DNA from: Rhynchobatus australiae
Taxonomy: Eukaryota
NCBI GenBank assembly: GCA_034780895.1
Contig: JAUZTB010000064.1
Location: 114,743,110 to 114,807,109, forward strand
Direction of reading: 5' to 3'
Length of the DNA: 64,000 bases
Below the pieces are notes generated by a model, which was given only the letters and a program-made list of their open reading frames with translations, searched no databases and was not told the origin of the DNA. Below, one piece after another: positions 3,790 through 60,290 of the stretch (position 1 is its first letter; every line of letters starts with the position of its first letter). The translations under genes were made by a program, and so were the position numbers.

Positions 3790-4770
3790 ACCAACTTACT
3801 GCATATGCACAAGGTAAGATCTTGGAGGTGTGCTTAATTTCGGGAGATGAGGCATTCTGCCAAATAGTTTTGACAATATGCTTGAGAAACCATCCCACAG
3901 GATCCATTGTGTCCTTCTCCCGCAAGGCCTGCAGGATGTTTCGTGCTGACCACTGCCTGATGGACGTAGTCAGAGGTGTTTTTCTTGAGAAAAAAGAATT
4001 TTTCCATGAAGGACAGGCAAAGTCCAACTGAATGGAACATTGCATGGTAACAAGGCCAGGTCCATCCTTTCTAACACTGGGGATAGGTAGAACCTCAACA
4101 TGTAGTGACACCTGGAGCTTGTGTAGTTCCATGCACAGCTTGATGCAGCCACACACAAAGCTGGCCAGAAATGATGAGGGCAATATTGGGTACATTTTTG
4201 CCCCCCTTATCTGTGGGCTTGTGCACAGTGACCTATCGGACATGCTCCATCTTCAATTTCCTGATGAAATGGAAAATGGCTCAGTTGACTGTCATGGTGG
4301 AGGAGTGGGGATGACACAGATAGCAACACCAAGAGCATCTGATGACCAGATTCTTGCCAATTGAGAGGGTGTGCCACTCTCACAGAGGCAATTTTTTGTT
4401 TAACTTTGCTATCTGGTCCAGATAATTTTTGTTACATGCCTCGGCCCCTCGAACCAACTCTTCAGCACCTTCAGGTAGTCGGACTTGATGGTAAAGGGAA
4501 CAATGGATTGATGGGGCCAGTTGCCAAAGAGCATGGCCCCACTCTTTCTGTGGTTGACTCTGGCCCCTGGGGCCAGCTCAAACTGATAGCAGATGGTGAT
4601 CAATCTGCGCACTGACCTTAGAACCAAGCAAAAGATGGTGATGTCATCCATATACAGGGAAACTTTGATCGGAATGCCTCCACTGCCTAGCATTTTCATC
4701 ACTCTTATGCCCACATCTATCCTAATGGATTCAGAAAAGAATTCTATGCAGTCCTGCAACTATCCAAGCT
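3790..4770 (-). mobile_element. Tx1/L1-clade LINE ORF2 fragment (RT catalytic region and C-terminus)
   Basis: KVSLYMDDITIF...YQFELAPGARVNHRKS (YxDD RT motif) and WSARNILQALREK...IWQNASSPE, in broken frames. Confidence 0.8.
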
Positions 4771-19299: not shown

Positions 19300-20400
19300 T
19301 GAAATTAAGTAGAGGAGTACAGCGTATAATACGGCATATACTCGCATCAACTCCGATTTAACACTGGAGGACGCTGTTGTATCGCGCACGATTAATTCTC
19401 TGCTTGCGATTTGCTCCATTAACAGAAAGAAATGCTGCAGCGAAAGGCTCAGGATATTTTTGGCAATATGGTACTTTTAAGTTTCGGAAAGTTGCTGGCG
19501 CTGCTGCTTTATAAAACTTAAATTCTTTAACCGGGTTAAAATGGTTTTCAGTGGTCAACGTCTGCTCTCTGTAAAACTTCGCCACACGGTATCGAACTCG
19601 CTCTTATTATTAACTGGAGTTCAACTTATTTTCTCTCTTATTTACATAGTATATTTTGCAAAATTAACATCGACTGGCATGTTAGTTATTTATCAAGTGG
19701 TAAAGAGATGACAGCTGAAAACAAATCTGAGTGAATGGCTGCAATGGGTCCAGTCAGGCTGAGAGTTTGACATTCTTCGCTTGAAAAACTATGTGGAACA
19801 CGTAACGGTCCGGCTCACATTCAGCGCTCTTTCTACTAGTATTTTCACCACATCGCAGGAGTTGATCAGAGTAAAAAGGCACGGCATTTAAATTGGATAT
19901 TGGTACATAGTGGCAAATTTAACTTTCACTTTAAAAAATGTCACCACCCCCTGCGAAACACATCGCCCGCAACCCATTGCCACATAAACCAGAGCCGCAA
20001 ATCCTTAAGTTATTCCTGTAACCAGCTAACGGTTCCAATACACGGCCCCATTAACCACGCCCCCCTTCTCATTCTCGGCCCTCACCTTACATCACATGTT
20101 GGCTCAACCTACGTTCCCGGGAGGGGGGGGGGGGGGACCCGCCGCCACTCATTGTGATTGACGGCAGCATTGCCCGCAGGGGGACGAACACAATTTGGGA
20201 AGGGGGGAGCGGTGGGATGCAAGTACGAACCAATGGTCAGAGCGGCAGCGGCAGATTGAGGGGCGGGCGGAGTCTTTCCTGTGCTGTGGAGTTTGGTTGT
20301 GTTGGGAGAGAGTGGAAGAAAGCAAGATCCCGGGGAATGACCAAAGCGAGTCATGTCTTTATTGGTGCCGGAGCGAAAGCGGCAGTGTGCTGAAACTGTA
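19300..20400 (+). promoter_or_regulatory. CpG-rich FAT4 promoter region
   Basis: CpG density rises sharply against CpG-depleted flanks. CCAAT at 20035 and 20230, ATTGG at 20361, KLF/SP site CCACGCCCCC at 20055, GC box GGGGCGGGCGG at 20260 and a G14 run at 20123-20136. The motifs lie 0.35-0.7 kb upstream of the ATG; the TSS itself is not determinable. Confidence 0.75.
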
Positions 20401-20725: not shown

Positions 20726-22936
20726 ATGGTACCGTTAGGTAGAAGCTGCAATCTTCTCGCCGTCTTGCTGATGCTTCTGAGTTTTTGCTGGGATGCCGCG
20801 TCCAACCAACTCCGCCAAGTGTTTCAGATCGAGGAGGAGCTGCCGCCCGAGACCCTGGTGGGCACCATACTCACCAAGCCCGACTTCACCTACCGCTTCA
20901 GCGAGAACCACGCGTTGTTCGCCATCAACGCCACCACAGGTGTCATCTGCACCACCTCGGTGATCGATCGCGAAACCTTGCCCAGCGACGTGATCAACAT
21001 CGTGGTGTTGTCCAGCCAGCCCACCTACCCCACCGAGGTCCGCATCATCGTGCTGGATGTCAACGACAACGCGCCCGTCTTCCCCGAGCCCAGCATCGTG
21101 GTGAGCTTCAGGGAGGATCCCAGCGGCGGGCGGCAGGTGATCCTGGACACCGCCACCGACGCGGACATCGGCTCCAACGGGGTGGACCACCGCTCCTACC
21201 GCATCGTGCAGGGCAACGAGGAAGGGAAATTCCGCCTGGACATCACGGTCAACCCGAGCGGGGAAGGCGCCTTCCTGCACCTGGTGTCGACCGACGGGCT
21301 GGACAGAGAGACGGAGCCTTTCTACCAGCTACTGGTGGAGGTGGAGGACCGCGGGCAGCCCAAGAGGTTCGGCTACCTGCAGGTCAATGTCACCGTTCAG
21401 GACACCAACGACAACTCGCCGCGCTTCTCGCAGGCTCACTACCAGGCCAGCGTCTACGAGAGTGTGCCGGTCGGCTCCAGCGTGCTGCAGGTGACGGCCA
21501 GCGACCTGGACCAGGCGGCCAACGCCGACCTGGTGTACTCGGTGGACGAGGGCAGCCCCTTCCACATGGAGCCGCTGACCGGGGTGCTCACCGTCAAGGA
21601 GGAGCTGGACTACGAGACGAGGAAGGAGTACTCGCTGGTGATCCGGGCCAGCGACGGCGGCAGCCCCTCGCTGAGCGGCCGCACCGAGGCCACGGTCAAG
21701 CTGCTGGACGTCAACGACAACGACCCGCTGGTGAAGTTCCGCTACCTGCCGGCCAACTCCCGGTTCGCGGCGGTGGACGAGAACGCGCCGATCGGCACGG
21801 TGGTGGCGCTGCTGACGGTGAGCGACGCCGACTCGTCGGCCAACGGCAACATCTCCGTCTCCATCCTGGCGGGCAACGAGCAGCTGCACTTCTCGGTGCA
21901 GCGGTCGCCGGTGCCGGGGCTCAGCCTGATCAAAGTGGCCAGCGCCCTGGACCGGGAGCGCATCCCGGCCTACAACCTGACCGTGTCGGTGTGCGACCAC
22001 GGCCTGCCGCTCGGCCGCTCCTCGCTCGCCAGCCTGCTCATCTTCATCAACGACATCAACGACCACCCGCCCGTCTTCGAGCGGCCGCTCTACCAGGTGC
22101 AGGTGGCCGAGGACGTGCCGCTCGGCAGCTACATCGGCGGCCTGAGGGCGACCGACGGCGACTCGGGCCTCAACGCGCAGCTCCGGTACTCGGTGGTGTC
22201 CGGCAACCGGCTGGGCTGGTTCAACATCAGCGAGGAGAGCGGCCTCATCACCAGCGCCGCCGCCCTCGACCGGGAGACGGCGGCCGAGCTCCGGCTCAAC
22301 ATCAGCGCCCGCGACCAAGGCCTGCAGCCGCGCACCTCCTACACCACCCTCAGCATCACCATCGGCGACGTCAACGACCAGGCGCCCACCTTCACCCGGC
22401 CCTCCTACAGCTCGGCCATCGCCGAGCACTCGCCGCCGGGCACGCCGCTGGCCGCCCTCACCGCCGTCGACAAGGATCTGGGCGCCAATGGCACCGTGCG
22501 CTACCTGCTGGCCCCTGACACCCCGCCCGCTTACCGGCAACTCTTCCGCCTGGACCCGGTGTCCGGCCTCCTCACCTGCCTCACCGAGCTGGACCGGGAG
22601 CAGCGGGCCGACTACGTCCTGTGGGTGCAAGCCCGGGATAAGGGCGAGCCGCCGCTCTCCTCGGTGGCCCGGGTCAACATCACGCTGCTGGACATCAACG
22701 ACAACAGCCCGACCTTCTACCCGCTGCAGTACTTCGCCAACATTAAGGAGAACGAGCCCCCCGGCGCCTACATCACCACCGTGTCGGCTGCCGACCCGGA
22801 TCTGGGCAGCAACGGGACGGTCAGCTACACCATCACGGCGGGAGACACCTCCAGGTTCCAGATCAACCACCACACAGGGGTCATCTCCACCAGGCTTTCA
22901 CTGGACCGAGAGGAGAGGACAGCTTATCAGCTGCAG
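20726..22936 (+). CDS. FAT4: FAT4 (FAT atypical cadherin 4) first coding exon: signal peptide, cadherin repeats EC1-EC6 and most of EC7 (737 codons)
   Basis: Strong Kozak accATGG and a hydrophobic signal peptide. Repeated DRE/DYE and DxND[N/H/Q] motifs. Peptides such as INIVVLSSQPTYPTEVRIIVLDVNDN, GRQVILDTATDADIGSNGVDHRSYRI, LDITVNPSGEGAFLHLVS and YPLQYFANIKENEPPG match vertebrate FAT4 as I recall it. The exon ends CTG CAG|GTTAGA (phase-0 donor at 22937), where cadherin-like sequence and the GC3 bias stop. Confidence 0.96.
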
Positions 22937-23576
22937 GTTAGACCATTTGTAGCGAAATTTTGTTTTCACTTAGCATGCGGCATTAGTACGTAACGACAAC
23001 AAAGTAGCGACCCAATAGTACACACTGTAGAGTGGAAGCGTGAGGAGGAGCTGAAATCCTCCCAGGCTGCTGTTAACAGGCGTCCCAACGTTAAAAGCCT
23101 TGTTTCAGGGACATGCTGCCACAGCTGTTGTTCCTCCCCCATTACTTTTGGAAGCGCTCCAAACACATTTTCAAGGTATGCTTCTTGAGCATGTGCAGAT
23201 GACTTTTTCACAATTTTCCATGGAGATTGGCCCTAATCAGCCATTGAAGTTTGCACTGTGCGTTACATGTTGTGCCAGAAACTGCTTCAGTTAGAGATAA
23301 AATTGATCTAGTTGGAGATGAAGGGTCTTGGAAAATTAATGATGACTTCTGTGTTATAACCTCATTTTGAAGAAACTGTTATGTCCTAGCTATTTTGCTG
23401 GTAATGATTTTTTTATCAGTGATCTTTTCATCTATCATTCATGTTCAATCCTTCACAAGAAGCTGGATGGCTGGATCTCTGATTCCCACACCCTTGTTGC
23501 AGGGAGGTATCTTAGTGAGTTTGAGTCACTGATCTTCGCAATCTACAAAGAGCATAATAATGTAACAATGAGGCAT

Positions 23577-23934
23577 AAAGACAGAGATACCACACGGAAA
23601 CAGGCCTTTTGGCCCATCAAGTCCGTGCTAACCATCAACCACCTGCTTACATTAAACCTACATTAATTCCATATTTTGTTCTCCCCACATTCTCACTAAT
23701 TCCCCCCAAATTCTATCACTTGCCTACACACTAAGGGCAATTTACAGTGGCCAATTAACCTATCAGGTGATAGCATGTCTTTGGGATGTGGGAGGAAGCT
23801 GGAGTACCTGGAGAAAACCCACATGATCACAGGGAAAACGTTTAACCTCCACACAGACAGTAGCTGAGGTCAAGATTGAATCAAGTATTTGGTACCATGA
23901 GGCACCGGCTCTACTACTTGTGTCACTGAGCCGG
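23577..23934 (-). mobile_element. HE1-type V-SINE, near full length, in the first FAT4 intron
   Basis: Minus strand has a tRNA-like head, V-domain (tctgtgtggaggttaaacgttttccctgtgatcatgtgggttttctccagg...ttcctcccacatcccaaagac) and CR1-derived tail (gggccaaaaggcctgtttccgtg). Confidence 0.88.
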
Positions 23935-26900
23935 TCTAAATATTCTATGCCTCAGCTAATGAAAGTAAGTATCCCATACCCCTTCTTCACTACCTTACCT
24001 TACTTGTCCAGCCACCTTCAGGGATCCTTGGACTTCTACACTGATGATCCTTTGTTCTTCAATACTCCCTTAAGGATGTTTATTAATAGAAAACTTCACA
24101 TTGAACTATAGTCAAGATTGACAGAATGACACATGCCTGTCATTCATTCCTCAATGGATTAGATACTATCTGATGTTAAGCAGTAGCCTGNNNNNNNNNN
24201 NNNNNNNNNNNNNNNNNNNNNNNNNNNNNNNNNNNNNNNNNNNNNNNNNNNNNNNNNNNNNNNNNNNNNNNNNNNNNNNNNNNNNNNNNNTCTGATGTTA
24301 AGCAGTAGCCTGTTTCTAGACCAGCTCTAATGCTGATTATGGGCCACTCACCAGGAAACATCCTACTGGGTTATGACTTGCTTAAATTTCCCAGACTTTC
24401 CACAGAGAGTGGAGAGTCTCCAATCAGCATCTTTCATCTAGAATGATCAAGACTGGGTGCTCAAAAAAAATTAAAGAAACTCATTGATAAATCCTAAGCA
24501 TTTGGTGGTGACTTAATATTTTCCTTCGCTTGTCTATTCCCACTATGTTACTCCCAGAATGCAATTCCACAAACAGTGATGGTCCTTTGGCATCTTAACC
24601 AAACAGCAAATTTTCCTGGTTCAGGTTTGAACAATCTTGGCCTGGAATTGAGATCTGCCCAGGAGAGAATTTAACAGCAGGAGTCCTTTCGGGTGGGAGC
24701 CTTTCCAGAATGCAAACACTTGAGTGCAATTAGGCAGAAAATCATCGTAGAATCAGAGAAAGAGTTCCCAGATCAAGGGAGGAAGTCTAGATTCTGTGGA
24801 ATATCTTCTTTGGAGAGGGTTGGATTTCGGGTTGTGGAATATAGACTCAGCTCGCAGGGCAAGAGGTCTGGTTTTAATTGTGGCACTGCAGAGGATTCTA
24901 GAGGTGGGGTTCTGATTGAAATGGAGATGGCAACATAGGACATTCAGATGGTTATTTGGGTGTGTGTGTATTTGTAGCTTCTTGGTTTTGGTGTTTCTGG
25001 CCCACAAGCTTCATTATCAAGATATTTACCAAACATATTCAGTCCTCTTCATCATCTTTCATCTGGCAGGTTTCCCAAGGAATGGGAAATGCTGTAACTT
25101 GTGGTTTTTAAAAAAAAGACCATTAAAATGAAGACAAGCAGCCTTATTATAATATTTGAGACCAGCTTGTTTCCTGGGAGTAGATTGGCTGCATGATACT
25201 CTTCTTGCTGCCATTAAAACAAAATGTAAATTCAAGGTACTGTAAGTTCCCACTGCAGATTTTTTGTAACTCATCCATGGACGTGACCCCAGTCCACCAG
25301 ATTTTTGGGACGCAAGATTTAGACCACTGTTTCCAATTGTGTTGCCTTAACTGTTGGCCAACTGAGATTAGTTAATTCAGCACAGGCAAGGGATCATAAC
25401 TCAGTAACAAAGAACACACTGCACTTCTTGAAAGTCACAGGGTGATGATAACTTTTTTTTTCACATATGAGAAAGTGAAATAGCTCTGTGATTTATTTTC
25501 ACACCATGCTAAATCCACATCAGGATCTAATTATGATATACCAGACTTGATGTTCCTTCAGTTTTACAAAGCAGGGTTTTTTAATATAAAGTCGTGGTTA
25601 TGCAGCCCTGTTAAACAAGTTCTTAATTACGATAGATTTAACAGTTGCTATTCCAGCTATTCCAATTGCAGTAATGTGAAACTAAATATTTATTTCCTAG
25701 AGAGGAAACCTTTTAATAGATTGTCAGTGTGCTATGGTAGAGAAAGGACATAAACATGATTCCTCGTAATCTACTGAGTTCCTGAATCCAGGTGCTTGGT
25801 TGCTGGAAACACAGAGGTGAAATGAGGCACTATCTCACATGGAGACTAAAAGGAATTTTAAGACATTGCTTTGAAGTTTCCAACAAGGAGAAAGGGGTGA
25901 TGTTTGTGGAGAGCTAGCTCATCTTTATTAGCTGAAGGCAATTCCGTTGTCCAGAAAGGACTGCATAAACAGGTAAAGGAAATATATAATTTCAGGCCAC
26001 CAAAAAGTAAATGATGATGATAAGCATCATTTTTTTACCTTATATTTTCCTTAGTCCACACTCCAAACTCCTGTTAAATCACAACACAATGTGTAATCAT
26101 GTAACTAAAGATGTACTATTATGAAATACAAAGTCATTGCATCATGAAATCCAATGAAGAAGTTGAACCTCAAAGCATTTTCTAAATTCTTGAGTATAAT
26201 GATTCAGGCAAAGCACTTGTTCAATTCATAATCCAAATTTCTGTAAGTTAATTGTTGAGTCTTTTCATATTGTTAGTAATATTTAATATATTCTATCTTG
26301 CTTTAATGGCTTTTAAAGTTGCATCAATATATTCACCTTGAGGAAAGATGACAACATAAATGCAAAATATTAGGAAATATGTGATATAGGAGTTTTGGAA
26401 GACTTGGCTACTGAACTTTTAAACTAACTTTATAATATCACTAAATGCTCAAAATTGGTATAAAAAAGTCTTCAGTGGTGAAATAAGGAATACTTTTATT
26501 AAAGTGATTATCAAATAAACTTAAAACTAATGCATTTGGACATTCCATCTTCACATTGTGTACTAAATTCCAAAGCCTGGATCTGCGTTGTCCTTAAGAT
26601 TTTCCAAAGGGACGGAGGCGAGACACGGGTTTTCACTTTGGTGAAAAAGTCAGTGTGTACGCAAAGTGATTTGTTTTTAGAAAACCTGATAACCAAGTGA
26701 ATAAATGATAAAAAAAACATTTTCTTTGTTTTTAAAATTGAAGTTATTCTTTTGTCTAACTTATCTGGAACCTTTATTGTTGTCAGTTACTGTGATCACA
26801 TGGTGCAGGTAGTTGTGGCCTTGAGCTCCCAGTCCATTGTGTAATTAAGCTGGGTTGGACTAATTATTTTCCTATCTTGTTCTAATGTAAGTACTCATGT

Positions 26901-27014
26901 AAATTGTAGTCACTGAAATGTTATGCATGATTCCATGATTCAAATTATGTAGAGAAATTTGTTCCCGATCAACAAAATAATCATATTGTTTGTTGTAAGA
27001 AAAATACTTTATAT

Positions 27015-28480
27015 GGACAAAAAATTGCTAGAAATACTCAGCAGGACAAGCAACCCCTGTGGAAAGAGAAATTACATTAATGTTTTGGTTCAATGCTCCT
27101 GCTCAGAATGAGGGAAGAGAGAAAGCACGATAGTTTTAAGTTGCAGAGAGGGTGGGGGAGGAAGGAAGGGATGAATAGGTCAAAGGAAATAGCTCTGATA
27201 GGGTGAGGCTAGGATTGCCATGGTTCTAAGATGTTGATGAAGGGTTGTGGTTTACAAATTAATGAAGGCAGTTAAAGAGAGAAAGAAAAGAACAAAGAAA
27301 CATGTAAAGGATGTGAAATGCAGGTTAAAGTGGCAGTAAGTGCCAAGCAGATCATGTAGTATTAATAGAGAGAGAAAAGCCGAGTCATTATTACAGGTGG
27401 TTAACCAACAATAGAGCCAGCCAGTTCAGATACAAACAGAGAAAGCAATTTACCTGAAATTGTTGAATTTGATATTGAATTTTGAAGGCTGCAAAACCCC
27501 AGACAGAAGATGAGATACTGTTTCTCAAGCTTACATTGGGCCTCATTGGAACAATGTGGGAAGCAGAGTGGGAATGTGATGGAGTACAGGCAAATGGAAG
27601 CTCAGATGGACTGATTAAAGGTGCTCTGCAAAGCGGTCATGCAAGCAATGTTTGTTATTTCCTGGAGACCACATCATGAGCATTGAATATAAAACACCAG
27701 ATTAGTAGCAGTGCAAATGAATCACTACTTCACCTGGAAGGACTGTTTAGTTTCTTAGATAGGAGGGAAATCAGGGAGTCGCAAAGGGCACGATCCCTTC
27801 AGAGTGCTGTGAGGGGAGGGGAGGGGAGGGAAAGGTTCGTAGTGAAATCTCTTAGATGGCAGCTGAAATTAGGAAGGATGATCCATTAAATGTGGAGTCT
27901 GCTGGGGTCCAAGGGACTTTGCTATGTTCAGGAGGAAAGGAGGTGAGAATAGAGTTGCAGAAAATAGATGAGGCATGGTCAAGAGCTGTAACAACTCAGG
28001 TGGAGGGGAAGTCACAGATATAGAAAAGGGAAGATGTATCAGAGATACCTGTGGGGAAAGACTCCTCATCAGAGCTGATATGACAGAGACAGAGAAACTG
28101 AGAATTAAATGGAGTCCTTTCAGGAATTGGGGCAGATGATAGTAATAGCCAAGATAGCCGTGAAAGTCTGTGGGCTTGTAATGGGTAGATGTTGTGGTGG
28201 TTGGGACTAGGAAATTGGGAACTATCAGTGGTGGGCATCAGAGGTGCATGGAAGGAAGTGGGAAGAGACTGAACCAGAGAGAAAGGATGGAGTCAAGGTA
28301 GGAAGAAATAAGTTTAGTGGGGCAATTGGCTAGCCTGAATTGTTCTTATTCTGAATCTTGGGCAGGAGGTAGAAATGGGTTGTATGGGGTTGGGTGCCCA
28401 TACTGCTAGAGGCTGTGGATGGAAGGACTCCCCACAGAAATGAAGTCTGTGACTGTCAGGAAAGACAATGCTCTGATATT
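27015..28480 (-). mobile_element. Degenerate Penelope-like retroelement in the first FAT4 intron
   Basis: pLTR end at 27020-27160 and GIY-YIG C-terminal region at ~27450-27750. The RT motif FYLLPKI lies on the minus strand at ~28353-28375. Confidence 0.8.
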
Positions 28481-30313
28481 CAATGGCGGAGCTGTGGCTG
28501 CGGAGCTCCAGGCATCTGAAGTTTTTAGGTTTTCAAATATTTTATATGAATATCACTCAGTATATATTTTTCTCCCACTCTTCTGCTGTGTACTTCTTTG
28601 CTCTCCTTTTATTTAAAATGTAATTTTGACAAAAATAGTTATAATATAAATATTTTCATATTCTAGACTTCCAAATTTTATGCCAATTTGCACAACATAA
28701 AATTCTGTGATGTTTGACAAGAGTATGAAATACACATAAAAAACAAAAGACATGGGTACAATTACAGGAGATATGGTATGGGGAAAAGAGTGTTTTTTTA
28801 CTGCTTGTGAATCCCCCTCAGGCTAGTCAGAATACATCTTTGAGCTTTAGGCCATGTCAACTATTCCACTGCTCTCCTAGCTGTGCTCTTGTCTTCCAAC
28901 TTCCATAATTCAGCTACCCCCATCTTAACCCTCTCTTCCCCCTTTAAGGTGAAACTTAGAGTACACCTCTTTAACCGACCCATTATTTTACCTGGGCTAG
29001 CATCTCTTTCTTTGGACCTGTGCCAGTTTTGCTATATAATGATTTTGTGAAGGAGTGCAGGACAATTTTATTGAAAATATCGTAAAAATATATGTTGTTG
29101 TTACCATAGTTAAGTGACAAAAAAAGACGTGATACTTTTCATTTGGATAAAATACTCTTCAGTTCTTTTACATTGCTTCTTGTGGTTTCGGGGAAGCACT
29201 ATGGGAGGTTTGAAGCAGGATTCTCCAACAACAAATCAAACACAGAAAAGTTATGGAGCGAAAAATAATTTTATATCAAACAAAATTAATGTATCAATGG
29301 AAATCTGTTTACAGATTATCTCTTGAGATTAATTTTTTCATGAAAAGAAACTTGAGTAAGGGATAAGAGAGAAAAAAAATCAGATGTATGAAGGGAGAGT
29401 GCTCATCAATTAAAAAATAAGCCTTGGAAAGTTCAGAGGTATAGTGGATTAGATCATTGGTACTTGAGCTCAGATTAAAATCAGATTGACACTCTTAACA
29501 CCTTTACAGTAACAAGACCAAGACGAGGAGAATTGAGGTATTCCCTGGACATCTGGCAAAGTGTACTGTAATTAAATTTGAATAAGATTGATAGAAATCA
29601 TTAAGTGCAGATAGAAAGCTTTGTGCTGCCTTTCCTGTAATTAATAAGATGAAAATCTTCTCTGCCTGCTAGTTATAAGGGTTGCATGAAATGCCTAATG
29701 TACATGGACCTAAGGCATAAAATTGTTTTAATTTGGAACTTCCCAGTAATGCCATTTAGACAAGGTCTGATTAGTGTGAAGGTTGAAAAAATTGTGTTGT
29801 GGGAATTAATTTTCTGAAACACTGTGTTGGGAGGCAAAGTAAAGAAATCTTTTCTCTACATTTGGCTGTACCATTCCTCACTAGAGATTCTAATACTTAG
29901 TGCATGAAATGGAAATTGTTTCAGGACCATTTGTGTGTTGACCTTAGTGGGAAAGGGATGGGAGTAGTGGGGAGGGGCTGGGGGGGTGTTGCTTGAGAGG
30001 ACCACCCCTTTTTTTAGTTTAAGCAAGCTTAGTTCTGTGCATTTGGGGTATTCAGGAAATCCTGATGGAAAATAATTGAGTAGGTGCCATGTTAAATAAT
30101 TCTTCAGAATCATTAAATGTTCAGCTTGACATTATATATTTATTCTAATCAAATAAGAAAATTAGATTATCTCATATAGTGTTTTGTGTCTTATTCTTCC
30201 TGTAAACCCAAAGATGCTTTCATATTATCCTTTGTTCTTTTGGTAACAAAACACTAAAGGCTTTTCCCTTCAAATCATCATCTAATGTTTTTCCATGTGA
30301 TTTTTGATTGCAG

Positions 30314-33300
30314 GTGGTTGCTACAGATGGTGGAAATCTCCGCTCGCAGACACTAGCTATTGTAACCATCACGGTTATTGACACACAGGATACACCTCCA
30401 TCATTCAGCCAGAGCAGCTACAGTTTTGTTATTTTTGAAAACATTGCTATTGGTTCCCTTGTCGGCACGGTATCTGCTTCTACACTTGATCTTAATACCA
30501 ACATCACTTACCTCATCACTTCAGGAGACCAGAGGGGCATGTTTACCATTGGTGGATCAACAGGTCAAATTAATACTGCCAGTATGATAGACAGAGAAGA
30601 AATGGCATTTTATCAGTTAAAAGTTGTGGCAAGTGGTGGTACAGTAACTGGGGAGACTTTAGTTAATATCACGGTCAAGGATCTGAATGATAATTCTCCA
30701 CATTTCCCTCATGTGGTTGAAAGTATTAATGCAGTTGAAAACTGGGGTTTGGGGCACACTATTTTTCAAGCTAAAGTTAAGGATCCTGATGAAGGCATCA
30801 ATGGCATGGTTTCATACACCTTGCGGCAGAATCCAAAAGGTCTCTTCCACATTGATGAGAAAACTGGAATAGTAACTTTAAATGGACCTCTTGACATAAA
30901 TGCAGGTTCATACCAGGTGGAGGCAGTAGCTTCTGACATGGGTGTTCCCCAGCGATCATCCAGCTTAATTTTGACTATCTATGTGCATGATGTGAATGAT
31001 AACCCACCTGTATTTGACCAGCTTTCATATGAAATCACTATTTCAGAAGCCGAACCTGTGAATTCTAGGTTCTTCAAAGTCCAGGCTTCTGACAAAGATT
31101 CAGGAGTGAATGGAGAGATCACCTATGACATTATAGAAGGAAACAAGGAGAAAAGATTTGGCATTTTTCCTGATGGGCAATTATACATTAAAGCTGAATT
31201 AGACCGTGAAACTCAAAGCCATTACGTCTTGATGGTTGTTGCTGCAGACAGGGCAGTGGAGCCTCTGAGTGCAACTGTGAATGTGACCATAATACTGGAA
31301 GATGTAAATGACAACAGACCTTTATTTAACAGCACAAATTATGTATTTCATTTTGAAGAAGAGCAGAAAGCTGGTTCGACTGTTGGATACATCAATGCTG
31401 TAGACAAAGATTTTGGATTTAATGGTGAAGTGAAGTATACATTTGAAACAGCCCAGCTTGATTTTGAGCTGAATGAAGTCACTGGAGAATTAACCAGTAG
31501 ACACCAGTTTGACAGGGAGGCTTTAATGAGGCAAAGAGGAGCTGCAGTTTTTAGCTTTAAAGTAACTGCATCAGACCAAGGATTGCCCAAAATTCTCCAG
31601 GATCATGCTACTGTACAAGTATACATCACAGATACAAATGATAATGCACCTAGATTCACCAAGGACCTATATCTGGCTACAATATCAGAATCAGCAGGAA
31701 ACTTGACACAAGTACTCCGTGTGAGTGCTTCAGATGTAGATGAGGGACATAATGCTTTGGTACACTACTATATCATTGAAGGAAATGAAGAAGATCAATT
31801 TATGATTCAAAGTACCACAGGACAGGTGACTTTGATAGGAAAACTGGACCATGAAGCTACAGTTTCCTATTCCTTAACTCTTCTCGCAGTCGACTTGGGA
31901 AGTGATCCTTTGAGTTCCACATGCACCTTAATTATCAGTGTGCTGGATGAAAATGACAACACTCCTTCATTTCCAAAAGCTGTGATGCACATTGACGCAT
32001 TGGAAAATATGAGAGTTGGAGAGCTTGTAGAATCTGCAACTGCCACTGATTCGGATTCTGGAGACAATGCTGAGATTCATTACAGCATTACAGGAAGTAA
32101 CAATCATGGAACCTTTAGCATCAGTCATAATACAGGTAGCATTTTCCTTGCAAAAAAAATGGACTTTGAAACCCAATCTGTTTACCATTTGAANNNNNNN
32201 NNNNNNNNNNNNNNNNNNNNNNNNNNNNNNNNNNNNNNNNNNNNNNNNNNNNNNNNNNNNNNNNNNNNNNNNNNNNNNNNNNNNNNNNNNNNNCTGTTTA
32301 CCATTTGAACATAACAGCAAAAGATAAAGGAAGACCCCCAAGGTCTTCAACAATGTCAGTAGTGATTCATGTTAGAGACTTCAACGATAATGCACCTAGC
32401 TTTCCCCCTGGAGATATTTTTAAATCTATTGTAGAAAACATTCCTATTGGTACATCTGTACTGACTGTAGCTGCCCATGACCCTGATGCTGATATTAATG
32501 GAGAATTACGTTATTGTATAGCTCAGCAAATACCAAGAGGAAACCATTTCGTGATCGGTGCTTCAGATGGAATACTGCGGACAAATGCGGAGATTGATCG
32601 TGAATTTTCCAATCTCTTTGAACTCACCATTAAAGCCATTGATCAGGCAGTTCCACTTGATTTCAGGCGTTTTGCTTTAAAGAATATAACCATCTTAGTA
32701 ACAGATCAGAATGATAATGCTCCAGTGTTTATATCTCAGAATGCTCTGATTGCAGACAGTGCTCTTGTGATGGGCTCCATTCTCACAACCATCAGGGCTA
32801 TTGACCTGGATGAAGGAACAAATGGAGAAGTTGAGTATGAACTAGTTAGTGGAGACAGTGACACATTCATGATGGATCGATATAGTGGAGATATTAGAGT
32901 AATAGCACCTTTAGTTCCTTCTAGACTCACCTATCAACTTGTTGTGTCGGCTATAGACTTTGGGCGGGAGAGAAGATCTACCAGCACAGATATGACTGTT
33001 ATTCTTCAGGGGACGGATGGACCTGTCTTTACCCAGCCAAAATATATCACTGTTTTACGAGAAGGAGAGCCTGTGGGTACCAGTGTGATCTCCTTAAAGG
33101 CAGCCAGTCCAAGAGGTTCTTCAGCACTACTGGAGTACTACATTGTTTCAGTTCATTGCGGTGGAAAATCTGTTGGACGCCTTTTCACAATAGGACAACA
33201 AAGTGGTATCATCCAAACAGCTGCTGTGCTGGATCGAGAGCGAGGACCAAATCTTTACCTTGTGGATGTCTACGCAGTTGAGAAATCTTCTAGTCTGCCC

Positions 33301-33318
33301 AGGACACAAAAAGCAGAG
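30314..33318 (+). CDS. FAT4: FAT4 second coding exon: end of EC7 to most of EC16 (963 codons after removing the spurious gap and duplicated overlap)
   Basis: Acceptor tttttgattgcAG|GTG GTT GCT continues AYQLQ-VVATDGGNL in phase 0. Peptides such as FFKVQASDKDSG, FGIFPDGQLYIKAELDRE, GRPPRSSTMSVVIHVRDFNDN and GPVFTQPKYIT match FAT4. The exon ends PRTQKAE GAG|GTAAGT, a perfect donor. 3005 nt minus 116 nt (100 N + 16-nt overlap) = 2889 nt, divisible by 3. Confidence 0.95.
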
Positions 33319-36300
33319 GTAAGTGGATATGATTTTAATGGTAATAATGGTCTTTCATAAAAGGGGTTTTGTTGCAGATCAAAGTAAATGGATTAATAGA
33401 TACAATTTGTAGCCACCATGGCTGAGGAGGCATTTTTGTTAATTTAAAAGCACGTTGCAAGTGTACACTTTTAAATAATGGGAAGGACACACTAACCAGG
33501 ATTTATGTGAGTGACATTTACATCTCATGCTTATTATAATGTAAGTATTGAAATTAATTTTACTTTTTGCTATCCTTACTCTGAGAAAATGAAGTTTTTT
33601 ATAATAATTGCAATATTTTACCTTTATAAAGCTCTCATTTTCTATGAAAGTACATTTGCAGACTATGCTTTGGATAATCCAGGAAAATGCAGATTTTGTT
33701 TGACAGTAAATGTTTCCACTTATTATATCAAATTTACATCTTTTTCAAATAGACCTTTATATATAAATGCAAAACATTTGCAAATTACAAAGTGAGCTAC
33801 CTGATTCTATAAACTGAAAACAGTGGTCTAAGTAACTGTTGTGTGATGCCATGCTTCAACAGATGGGTTGATCTGGACAAATCCAGAGACTGACTGTGAA
33901 TGTGGATCTAATTTTAACCTGTGAGTCAAGTTAACCTTTGAACCCATAAAGGGCAAAGCAACAAGTGAATATATTTAGTTTCTACTGACCACCATTGTAT
34001 ATTCTATTCTCACCGCAGAGTAGGAAAGATAAGGAGCATTTAATTTTAAATATATCTTTATTTATAAGACTAAATATTTTACTTTAACAAAATAAAAATG
34101 CGTGTATATAAAGACCATGTGAAGACAAAAATGATAACCAACGTTGCACAGTTTCTTGATCACATTGATTACATTCCTGGTTGTAAATCTTGGAAACCCT
34201 TTTCAAATAATACAAAAATTGGGACTTTGAATATACTGTAAGGGATGAGACAATGGCCTTGCTTAGTAGCTTTTCTCCTAAACCTTTTATATAGCATGCA
34301 CCTTGCTTAATAACAGCTCATATTCCTGGTCTTTGAAGCCTGCTAGTTTACAACACTCTGATATGGACATCTCTTTAATTTTACTTGTATTAATAGGCTG
34401 TTTTTTGGTGTGTTTTGAACTTTGTGGAAAAACATGATGTAGCTTAGTAAACCCAAAAGACATGTTTGCGAAGTCAAGAGAAAAAAGTAGTATGAAATAT
34501 GCAAAGGTTTACACTAATGAAATGTGCACTGTCATACAAGTGACACAATGCGGAGAGACTAATGTCTGCTGATGGATAACAAACAGTGGAGCAAGGCCAG
34601 TGGTGCCAGACTTTTGACAGGAAAAGCATTGTTGTTTCTTTCATACTTTGTTAATTTGTGTTTTTAAGTAAAATGTACTGGAGAATGGAAATGACATTTG
34701 ATTGCTAATTATATTTTATGATTGCTAATTTGTTCTTATGTGGTTTTGTCACATTGTATAACAGGAGTAATTTTTTTCCCAACAAATTTATTGAAGTTTA
34801 ATTGAATAATTAAATAATACAATATTTCTGTACATATGTCATGGTTATGTTTATAATACAATGAAGAATTTTTGTAGGATCTTTCTGCTCTGCACTGTAA
34901 AACTGTTGAAAGTGTTTTTCTTTTACAAACTTTCTCAGTCGTGAAGTTGGTCATTGCTATATCTTAAGATATTCTTATGGCCTGTAATTAGTGGGTTTAG
35001 AATGAAGAATAATGATAATTGGATTTTACATGCAGGATCTATATACTATTAAAGTGAAGGCATGCTTGTAAGTAATACCATAAAGGATATGTGATATGAC
35101 CCATTACATACAGTGGGACTCATTTAATATTGTGTAACAAACCATTGTAATGAGCAGAATTTCACACATTTCAATTAATTATGCACAAATGTCACAGATA
35201 ATATTTTGACATGTAAAGAGATATAAATATCAATAATGAGTATCTAATATTTGTTCTGAAACACCACAGCAAATTTTCTAATTATAAAAGTTACCAGCCC
35301 AGCCAATCCATCACCAGGCCCTCCTTAATCCCTTCTCCTTCACCATGTTACCCATATCCCTCCCCCTCCTTCATATTGTTCAGCTGTTCCTGAGGAGAAA
35401 TATGCGGTCCTGAGAAAGAGCTTCATCACTGGTGTTATAGTTTTAACATTGCTTCAGTGGAATTACAGATAACACTGGGCCACAGGAAGAGGATTTATAA
35501 ATAATGGGTCTAAGGTATGAGTAGCTGAAAGTTATATAGGCAGAAAATTAGATTCTTATCAGTTTTTCAACATAAGGTAAATAAATTAGAAGAAATTCTG
35601 AGCTAGTGGTATTGTTTCAATGAAACAGTGTTTTTCTGGGGCACGGAATAAACTGTTTGACAATGACTTTGTTATTCTAATTGGAATCAGGCTGCCAGCT
35701 AGGCCTGAAACATGCCTACTTGTAGGAGATGGTCACTTGACACCAGACTGTTAGAAAAATCTCCCTGGGCAATGTTATGTTAATACCAGTTCTAACAGGA
35801 GCTGTAGGCCAATTGTGGAAAGTAGAGGAGTCCTAAATATCTGTAACAATCATGTAATTACCAATGAGGGAAAAAAGGGAAATATAACACAAGGGGTAGT
35901 TGCATCTTATCCAAGTAACAGCAAAGTGTATTAGTAGGTTAATTGTAAGAGGAATTTTAAGCTCTTTTCCTAAACTGATGGGATTGTAGGTACCGCCAGG
36001 TTTTACTCTCCATGAAGTCAATAGAAGTATATGGCAAACAGCCAGCCACTGCAATTCTCTCAGTATCGTGCTGAGCAGTCTTAAGTTAAACTACCCTTAA
36101 ATTACAATTATATTCAAAGCGTTTCTTATCAAGGAAGTGCAATATTATTGTTATGGCAGTCATACAATGTATTCTCTCAGTACATTTACTGTGTCACAGT
36201 ATTGAGTGAACTTGGAATATCTTTAGGCTGCAGATGAGCTGCAAAACAGCATTTCCCAGACCATGCCTGGAGCATTGGCACTGGAGATCTACAGAATACT

Positions 36301-59948: not shown

Positions 59949-60290
59949 CATAGATCGAGTGGACAGTCAGAGACTCTTTCCCAGAGTGACAATGGCTAAC
60001 ATGAGGGGGCATAATTTTAAGGTGGTTGGAGGAAGATATAAGGGGGATGTGAGTGGTAAGTTTTTTTTACACAGACAGTGGTGGGTGTGTGGAATGCACA
60101 GCCGGGAGAGGTTGTGGGGGCAGATACATTAGGGATATTAAAGAGACTCTGAGATTGCCACATGAATGATAGAGAAATGGAGGGCTATTTGAGAGGGAAG
60201 GGTTAGCTAGATCTTAGAGCAGGTTAAAATGTCGGCACAACATTGTGAGCTGAAGGGCATGTACTGTGTTGTAATGTTCTATGTTCTATG
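59949..60290 (+). mobile_element. CR1 LINE 3' end
   Basis: gggggcataattttaaggtg...acagacagtggtgggtgtgtggaatgc...gaagggcatgtactgtgttgtaatgttctatgttctatg with a tandem terminal repeat. Confidence 0.85.

What the first reader, a model, noticed from the sequence alone, without database searches (positions are those of the whole stretch)
22930..30320. Extra intron splits the giant first coding exon of FAT4, with the same 7-mer at both junctions
Seen: a 7.4-kb phase-0 GT-AG intron interrupts EC7 (AYQLQ|VVATDGG). The donor context is cTGCAG|GTtaga and the acceptor context is tTGCAG|GTggtt, so TGCAGGT spans both boundaries. Recalled knowledge: in human FAT4 the whole region up to ...PRTQRAE (~aa 1725) is one ~5.2-kb exon, and the downstream donor here (KAE|GTAAGT) matches that boundary. 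Inference: this is either a lineage-specific intron gain or an ancestral intron lost in bony vertebrates. A duplicated CAG|GT is what a target-site-duplication or tandem-duplication origin would leave. Intron gain in vertebrate coding exons is rare. Caveat: CAG|GT is also the ordinary splice consensus, so the repeat alone is weak evidence.
Basis: partly seen in the sequence, partly recalled or inferred. Interest (0 to 1): 0.72.

Follow-up and report, generated by a model that had tools for sequence, protein, structure and literature searches.

The report
Extra intron in ray FAT4
In a cartilaginous fish (likely a ray), a real 7-kb intron cuts a giant FAT4 exon that is unbroken in insects, spiders and land vertebrates; it was likely gained in cartilaginous fishes, ticks likely gained one at the same codon boundary on their own, and the seven repeated letters at its ends are ordinary splice signal.

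Summary
The intron is real: window 22937-30313, GT-AG, phase 0, inside cadherin repeat 7 of FAT4. RNA of a close relative joins the two exons, and DNA of two relatives runs into the intron. It is old: shared with a species about 8% diverged and holding a decayed repeat. The shared TGCAGGT is not a usable target-site duplication: 3 of 12 other FAT4 acceptors end in TGCAG, 2 of 10 other introns share 6 letters, and no exon relic or terminal repeat remains. The site is intron-free in raw genomic ORFs or DNA of insects, crustaceans, spiders, two unnamed invertebrates, a snake and a bird-like amniote; nearly all of these end at the same downstream donor, so the ~5.2-kb exon is ancient. Tick gene models break at exactly the same Q|V boundary (protein evidence only). 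Best reading: gain in cartilaginous fishes at a CAG|GT proto-splice site, with a parallel gain in ticks (0.5). Rivals: earlier gain with loss in bony vertebrates (0.22); bilaterian intron lost at least four times (0.2). Sharks, chimaera, lamprey, amphioxus and teleost DNA were not tested. The protein is unchanged.

The parts
20726..22936 (+). FAT4 coding exon A (signal peptide, cadherin repeats 1-6 and most of 7; 737 codons); CpG island, GC3 about 0.95
22932..22938 (+). donor-side TGCAG|GT (L-Q codons, then GT donor)
   Evidence: RNA of organism C leaves here
22937..30313 (+). the extra phase-0 GT-AG intron, 7,377 letters as assembled (one 100-N gap inside)
   Evidence: its first 664 and last 814 letters matched only themselves in G000
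27060..27750 (.). decayed dispersed repeat inside the intron; best other copies 67-80% identical; not at either intron end
   Evidence: 41 other places among 40 scored of 5,116 candidates
30309..30315 (+). acceptor-side TGCAG|GT after a T-rich tract
30314..33318 (+). FAT4 coding exon B (end of repeat 7 to KAE; about 963 codons, with a 100-N scaffold gap whose 16-letter flanks are duplicated); GC3 about 0.5
33319..33324 (+). KAE|GTAAGT donor of the next intron (134.7 kb, beyond the window); same position in insects, spiders and amniotes

Best explanation
This is an ordinary spliced GT-AG intron that splits an ancient ~5.2-kb FAT4 exon without changing the protein; it was likely gained in the cartilaginous-fish line at a ready-made CAG|GT site, and ticks likely gained an intron at the same codon boundary independently. 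Shown: position, phase, splicing in a relative, presence in three related organisms, and absence in arthropod, other invertebrate and amniote genomic frames. Inferred: the gnathostome ancestor had Gln-Val here; an insertion that duplicated the AG|GT core (staggered-break repair, an element insertion or a local duplication, no longer separable) gave a working donor and acceptor in one step; the intron then grew by repeat insertion. The two extra shared letters (TG) need no special cause.
For: Splicing and presence: 4 RNA reads plus 1 contig join the exons; DNA contigs of organism C (X3) and organism F (X16, 170 other letters over 2,210) cross the donor and run about 570 letters into the intron. 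Absence elsewhere: 85 of 90 raw-contig ORFs among the 120 top hits read through the site (the other 5 were not scored because my motif missed them; one search shows them running through), and 82 of 90 end just after the KAE-homologous donor. Three such ORFs cluster with a named spider Fat4 piece. Genomic DNA without the intron: bird-like L041, marine invertebrate L045 (one 1,741-codon frame), insect and crustacean loci L042-L048, and intron-rich L066, whose exon spans the site. A 1,785-aa Logan ORF in the snake cluster also spans it. Ticks: 5 draft models of 4 species leave homology at YEIQ|, a sixth begins at (CFVQ)|VAARH, and the full-length tick protein reads YEIQVAARH; the boundary aligns gap-free with AYQLQ|V. 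With spiders and pancrustaceans lacking it, two gains replace at least four losses. Target: 29 of 29 fetched bony-vertebrate proteins carrying the motif have Q|V or Q|I; none of the 85 intron-free arthropod ORFs has Q|V. Background: patchy shared patterns are often parallel gains (PMC2151770, section 10); vertebrate gains occur at AG|GT (PMC3265369, passages).
Against: No shark, chimaera, lamprey, hagfish or amphioxus gene could be read, so the branch of the gain is not fixed. Teleost and amphibian absence rests on gene models and one Logan ORF of unknown DNA or RNA origin (P0034). The tick intron is inferred from protein break points, not DNA. Only 2% of positions shared between deuterostomes and flies were estimated as parallel gains (PMC2151770, Table 1). 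The elephant shark shows fewer intron changes than any bony vertebrate (PMC3964593, passages), so a gain on this branch is rare a priori. Hitting the same site twice is unlikely by chance: the two exon halves hold 12 other CAG|GT and 58 MAG|G sites. L054, L056 and L066 show that some invertebrates have several introns in this region, and L054 ends about 19 codons short of the site. Q|V in ticks and rays could be a result of an old intron, not its target. No trace of the insertion mechanism was found.
Confidence: 0.5

Rival explanations
1. The intron was gained earlier, on the chordate or vertebrate stem, and was lost once in bony vertebrates (or only in tetrapods or amniotes); ticks still gained theirs separately.
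For: Nothing read here lies between rays and non-chordate invertebrates. The intron is old: alignable between organisms about 8% apart and carrying a repeat about 30% diverged from its best copies. Intron change is reported as low in the elephant shark line. Direct DNA-level absence in vertebrates is shown only for amniotes.
Against: It needs one gain plus one loss where one gain will do. Loss of the 5'-most coding intron of a ~15-kb message, with the next intron kept, is not what reverse-transcript loss favours (recalled, not tested). 29 of 29 bony-vertebrate proteins run through the site (weak, as most are spliced models).
Confidence: 0.22
2. The intron is an ancestral bilaterian intron kept only in rays and ticks and lost separately in spiders, pancrustaceans, at least one other invertebrate line and bony vertebrates.
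For: Exact position and phase match between rays and ticks. Most shared positions reflect ancestry, about 92% overall (PMC2151770, abstract and section 10). The neighbouring KAE intron is shared across bilaterians. Some invertebrate Fat loci are intron-rich in this region.
Against: It needs at least four independent losses of one intron while the next is kept in every giant-exon lineage read. Ticks seem to have added another intron in this exon at a second Q|V (3 Logan ORFs), so ticks gain here. Intron-rich L066 has none at this site.
Confidence: 0.2
3. The TGCAGGT repeat is a preserved 7-letter target-site or tandem duplication that records a recent element-driven insertion.
For: 7 letters is the longest junction repeat among the 11 FAT4 introns with both ends placed.
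Against: The other ten give 3-6 letters, two of them 6. TGCAG ends 3 of 12 other acceptors of this gene, so given the exon's CTGCAG|GT the match has roughly a 1-in-4 chance. No similarity of intron ends to flanking exons or to each other (p 0.11-0.99 against 300 shuffles) and no cadherin relic in six frames. Intron ends found once in G000 (that search skips very common words). The intron is old.
Confidence: 0.07
4. The split is an assembly artefact.
Against: Contigs of two other organisms cross the donor into the same intron sequence, and RNA joins exon A to exon B. The end of exon A has one full match in G000.
Confidence: 0.01

Closest known systems
Vertebrate intron gain at an AG|GT site: ATP2A1 (Hellsten et al. 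2011, PMC3265369, passages)
   Same: A single extra U2-type intron at an AGGT motif that splits an ancestral exon without changing the protein; old, with no recognisable source left.
   Different: ATP2A1 is shared by tetrapods and teleosts and has intron-less paralogues as control; this one is seen in ray-like fishes, is absent from amniotes, is phase 0, and has a probable twin in ticks.
Lineage-specific and convergent intron gains in ray-finned fishes: slc26a1/slc26a2 (PMC12357937, passages)
   Same: New introns in otherwise large exons, with convergence of insertion sites.
   Different: Those are in teleosts, where turnover is high, and some retain transposon-like sequence; here the host is a slow-changing cartilaginous fish, the convergence is with an arachnid orthologue, and no element marks the ends.
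Parallel intron gain at proto-splice sites (Carmel et al. 2007, PMC2151770, abstract and section 10)
   Same: Same position and phase in two distant lineages with absence in between.
   Different: A single-gene case in an exon that is otherwise unbroken over about 1,750 codons in insects, spiders and amniotes; the ancestral state is not yet fixed.
Human FAT4 and arthropod fat gene structure
   Same: Same KAE donor; exon count here equals the human 17 (PMC5138043, passages) plus one; CpG island over promoter and first exon in both.
   Different: One extra intron in cadherin repeat 7. The human exon-1 size (about 5.2 kb) is recalled; one search listed no paper with c.5175 or c.5176 among the 25 shown of 61.

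Membership tests
FAT4 orthologue | FAT4-type N-terminal cadherin domain and colinear full-length match | tested here: met
   PF25374 154 bits; PDB Protocadherin Fat 4 best hit; colinear with tarpon FAT4-like from residue 5 to 4965
U2-type spliceosomal intron | GT donor, pyrimidine-rich tract and AG acceptor restoring the frame with no residue gained or lost | tested here: met
U2-type spliceosomal intron | removed from RNA at the predicted junction | tested here: met
   4 reads of X21 and 1 contig of X13, organism C, not the window's own species
Lineage-specific intron gain | absent in the sister group (bony vertebrates) | tested here: inconclusive
   met at DNA or raw-ORF level for amniotes; teleosts and amphibians only by gene models
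Lineage-specific intron gain | absent in the nearest outgroups (cyclostomes, amphioxus) | not testable with these tools
   no such DNA or raw ORF came up; the representatives search never ran
Lineage-specific intron gain | absent in distant outgroups | tested here: inconclusive
   absent in insects, crustaceans, spiders, L045, L066 but probably present in ticks
Intron born by tandem duplication of an AGGT segment | AG|GT at both junctions | tested here: met
Intron born by tandem duplication of an AGGT segment | intron still resembles the flanking exons | tested here: not met
   age could have erased it
Transposon-derived (introner-type) intron | terminal inverted repeats or multi-copy element ends at the splice sites | tested here: not met
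Transposon-derived (introner-type) intron | junction direct repeat longer than splice consensus explains | tested here: inconclusive
   7 letters against 3-6 in ten other introns; TGCAG ends 3 of 12 other acceptors
Parallel intron gain (rays and ticks) | same position and phase in both lineages | tested here: inconclusive
   protein break points of 6 tick draft models agree; no tick DNA was read
Parallel intron gain (rays and ticks) | absent in lineages between them | tested here: met
   spiders, pancrustaceans, L045, L066, amniotes

The most novel reading that the evidence does not exclude
A ~5.2-kb Fat/FAT4 exon that has stayed unbroken since the bilaterian ancestor in insects, spiders and land vertebrates was cut twice, independently, at the very same letter: once in cartilaginous fishes, a group with almost no intron turnover, and once in ticks. 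That would make this CAG|GT a true insertion hot spot and a clean natural case of parallel intron gain between a vertebrate and an arachnid.
Probability: 0.45. Interest if true: 0.55.

Novelty: new member of a known kind. Interest (0 to 1): 0.42.

Why it matters
Documented intron gains in cartilaginous fishes are scarce, and well-resolved parallel gains between a vertebrate and a protostome are rarer still; both bear on how often shared intron positions mislead ancestral reconstructions. The intron is also a possible rare genomic marker for rays, elasmobranchs or all cartilaginous fishes once its range is mapped. A side result is that the giant first FAT4 exon and its 3' boundary are shared by insects, spiders and amniotes. 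It does not change the protein, and no function or insertion mechanism can be read from it, which caps the interest. None of the ten literature searches listed a paper on this intron; the library is incomplete and genome annotations may already show it.

Tried and rejected
Target-site or tandem duplication signature: rejected as evidence; two of 13 introns (i14, i15) were dropped from the count because my boundaries there were not canonical. Element ends: none. Structured RNA in the intron's 3' 6.1 kb: no Rfam match at gathering score. Tandem repeats: one 20-letter unit near 29,945 only. Misassembly: rejected. Shark, chimaera, lamprey or amphioxus genomic frames: none among the 120 listed hits of each (length-limited, candidates capped; full-length proteins were not searched) or among 79 metagenome loci; genome contigs gave 5 weak hits, not examined further, and viral contigs none. 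The search of protein representatives never ran, so remote deuterostome frames were not sampled. No run on record as RNA was listed as a holder; RNA evidence comes from a run added by species label. Placing L045, L054, L056 and L066 in a phylum failed: long branches, weak support, unnamed clusters. A first quick tree put P0329 beside pancrustaceans; its cluster then showed a spider, which I follow. The elephant-shark paper's supplement gave no hit for FAT4 or intron gain in the 1 file searchable; its note on intron changes was not seen and may bear on this. FAT4 did not occur in the main text of bioRxiv 443036 or PMC12124190; their supplements were not seen.
Full report
1. Observation. The ORF from ATG 20726 runs 737 codons to AYQLQ and is followed by GTTAGA; the frame resumes at 30314 with VVATDGG after TTTTTGATTGCAG. 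The intron is 22937-30313, phase 0, 7,377 letters as assembled, with one 100-N scaffold gap whose flanks are duplicated. It lies in cadherin repeat 7. The gene is FAT4, and homologous proteins cross the junction with no residue gained or lost. TGCAG|GT stands at both ends. The next donor is KAE|GTAAGT at 33318.

2. Host and reality. Exon A branches apart from both teleosts and sauropsids (quick trees). A globin exon of this genome had one PDB match at E <= 1e-12, haemoglobin chain 1cg5_B, which I recall as a stingray haemoglobin; the host is therefore likely a ray. The stretch 21300-23600 was laid with four runs. Four raw RNA reads of organism C and one contig of a probable RNA run leave at 22938, and their loose letters match the start of exon B in 29 of 30 places. 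DNA contigs of organism C and of organism F (170 other letters over 2,210) cross the donor and follow the intron for about 570 letters. So the intron is spliced, is not private to this assembly, and predates those splits. A repeat inside it is only 67-80% identical to its best copies.

3. Gene structure. With 280 kb of the same contig fetched, a full-length tarpon FAT4-like protein maps to 16 exons; two stretches of the query (part of 1818-1950, and 4049-4075) found no match and are taken as two more exons. That gives 18 coding exons against 17 known human exons (PMC5138043, passages).

4. The 7-mer. Ten other introns of this gene with both ends placed share 3, 3, 3, 3, 4, 4, 4, 5, 6 and 6 letters across their junctions; two further introns were dropped because my boundaries were not canonical. 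TGCAG ends 3 of 12 other acceptors. Intron ends resemble neither the flanking exons nor each other (p 0.11-0.99, 300 shuffles), and six-frame profile search finds no cadherin relic. The first 664 and last 814 letters matched only themselves in G000 (a search that skips very common words). The repeat is one letter above this background and carries little information on origin.

5. Who lacks the intron. A profile search returned 120 top hits of about 1,650-2,200 residues; 90 come from raw contigs. Of these, 85 read through the site (5 unscored, seen running through) and 82 end just after the position of the KAE donor in non-homologous tails, the mark of genomic DNA. Nearly all are closest to insects or crustaceans; P0329 and two cluster mates group with a named spider Fat4 piece. 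Fetched DNA agrees: a bird-like amniote locus (L041, CAG|ATC, frame open to RAE|GTAAAG), a marine invertebrate (L045, one 1,741-codon frame ending at a GTAAGT donor), and insect and crustacean loci. A 1,785-residue Logan ORF in the snake cluster does the same. L066, a divergent intron-rich Fat locus, has an exon across the site. All 29 fetched bony-vertebrate proteins that carry the motif continue in frame, but most are spliced models; teleost absence is not shown at DNA level. The giant exon and its 3' end are thus shared by arthropods, at least one other invertebrate line and amniotes. Against a universal giant exon: L054, L056 and L066 have several introns in this region, and L054 stops about 19 codons before the site.

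6. Ticks. Five draft models from four tick species leave homology exactly after YEIQ, two by reading V-G-S into a stop. A Haemaphysalis draft model begins its homology at CFVQ|VAARH, as an in-frame acceptor would, and the full-length Haemaphysalis protein reads YEIQVAARH. One more tick model ends 57 residues earlier and is uninformative. The boundary aligns without gaps to AYQLQ|V. This is protein evidence for a phase-0 intron at the same place; no tick DNA was read. Three Logan tick ORFs stop after VLQ-VR, hinting at a second tick intron at another Q|V.

7. Mechanism and history. Presence in rays and ticks with absence in spiders, pancrustaceans, L045, L066 and amniotes needs two gains or at least four losses. 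Q|V or Q|I is kept across bony vertebrates, so a CAG|GT target likely existed before the insertion; intron-free arthropods have K|I, T|I and the like. I commit to insertion at that proto-splice site with duplication of the AG|GT core, on the cartilaginous-fish side, and a separate gain in ticks (0.5). The known model for one-step birth at AGGT was shown experimentally for ATP2A (PMC3265369, passages), but tandem duplication, break repair and element insertion cannot be told apart here. Counterweights: shared positions are mostly ancestral, about 8% parallel overall and 2% between deuterostomes and flies, though patchy patterns reach 0.8-0.99 (PMC2151770, abstract and section 10); the elephant shark has the fewest intron changes (PMC3964593, passages); and the exon offers 12 other CAG|GT and 58 MAG|G sites. 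Hence 0.22 for an earlier gain with loss in bony vertebrates and 0.2 for an ancestral intron lost repeatedly. These odds are judgement, not a computed likelihood.

8. Composition. Exon A has GC3 near 0.95 and CpG observed/expected near 1, fading about 150 letters before the donor; exon B has GC3 near 0.5. The intron-free L041 shows the same fall, 0.75 to 0.36, and the human gene has a CpG island over promoter and first exon. The step in composition is therefore an ordinary island edge, not a sign of mixed origin.

9. Literature and verdict. Ten searches listed nothing on this intron. Read as passages: PMC12357937, PMC3964593 (supplement search empty), PMC5138043, PMC3265369, bioRxiv 443036, PMC12124190; as abstract and one section: PMC2151770. 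Verdict: a real, old, protein-neutral extra intron; likely a rare gain in cartilaginous fishes with a probable parallel gain in ticks; the 7-mer is ordinary. New member of a known kind; interest 0.42.

Noticed in passing
window 20726-22800: Exon A is an extreme CpG island (GC3 0.90-1.00 over codons 50-700) that fades just before the donor; a bird-like locus without the intron shows the same 5'-to-3' fall.
   Followed up: partly
proteins P0239-P0358; L045; L041: The ~1,750-codon first Fat exon and its 3' donor are shared by insects, crustaceans, spiders, an unnamed marine invertebrate and amniotes.
   Followed up: yes
proteins P0222-P0224: Tick Logan ORFs stop after VLQ-VR-LL where the full-length tick protein goes on VLQVRATDAD: a possible second tick intron at another Q|V in the giant exon.
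   Followed up: no
L054:1661, L056, L066, L058:1480: Unnamed invertebrate Fat loci with introns inside the giant-exon region at other positions; L054 has one at CAG|GT after VIQ. Phylum not resolved.
   Followed up: partly
window 24191-24290 and 32194-32293: 100-N scaffold gaps with exactly duplicated flanks (22 and 16 letters); the second breaks the frame of exon B as assembled and is an assembly feature.
   Followed up: yes
window 20225-20275: CCAAT and GGGGCGGGCGG boxes about 470 letters before the ATG, a likely promoter; no acceptor candidate was found near the ATG, so exon A may be the true first exon here.
   Followed up: no
window 33319 onwards (G000:C64): The next intron is 134.7 kb and a later one 44.7 kb; the coding gene spans about 293 kb.
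   Followed up: partly
window 59950-60132: Open frame resembling the 3' end of a CR1-type LINE (family name recalled, not tested).
   Followed up: no
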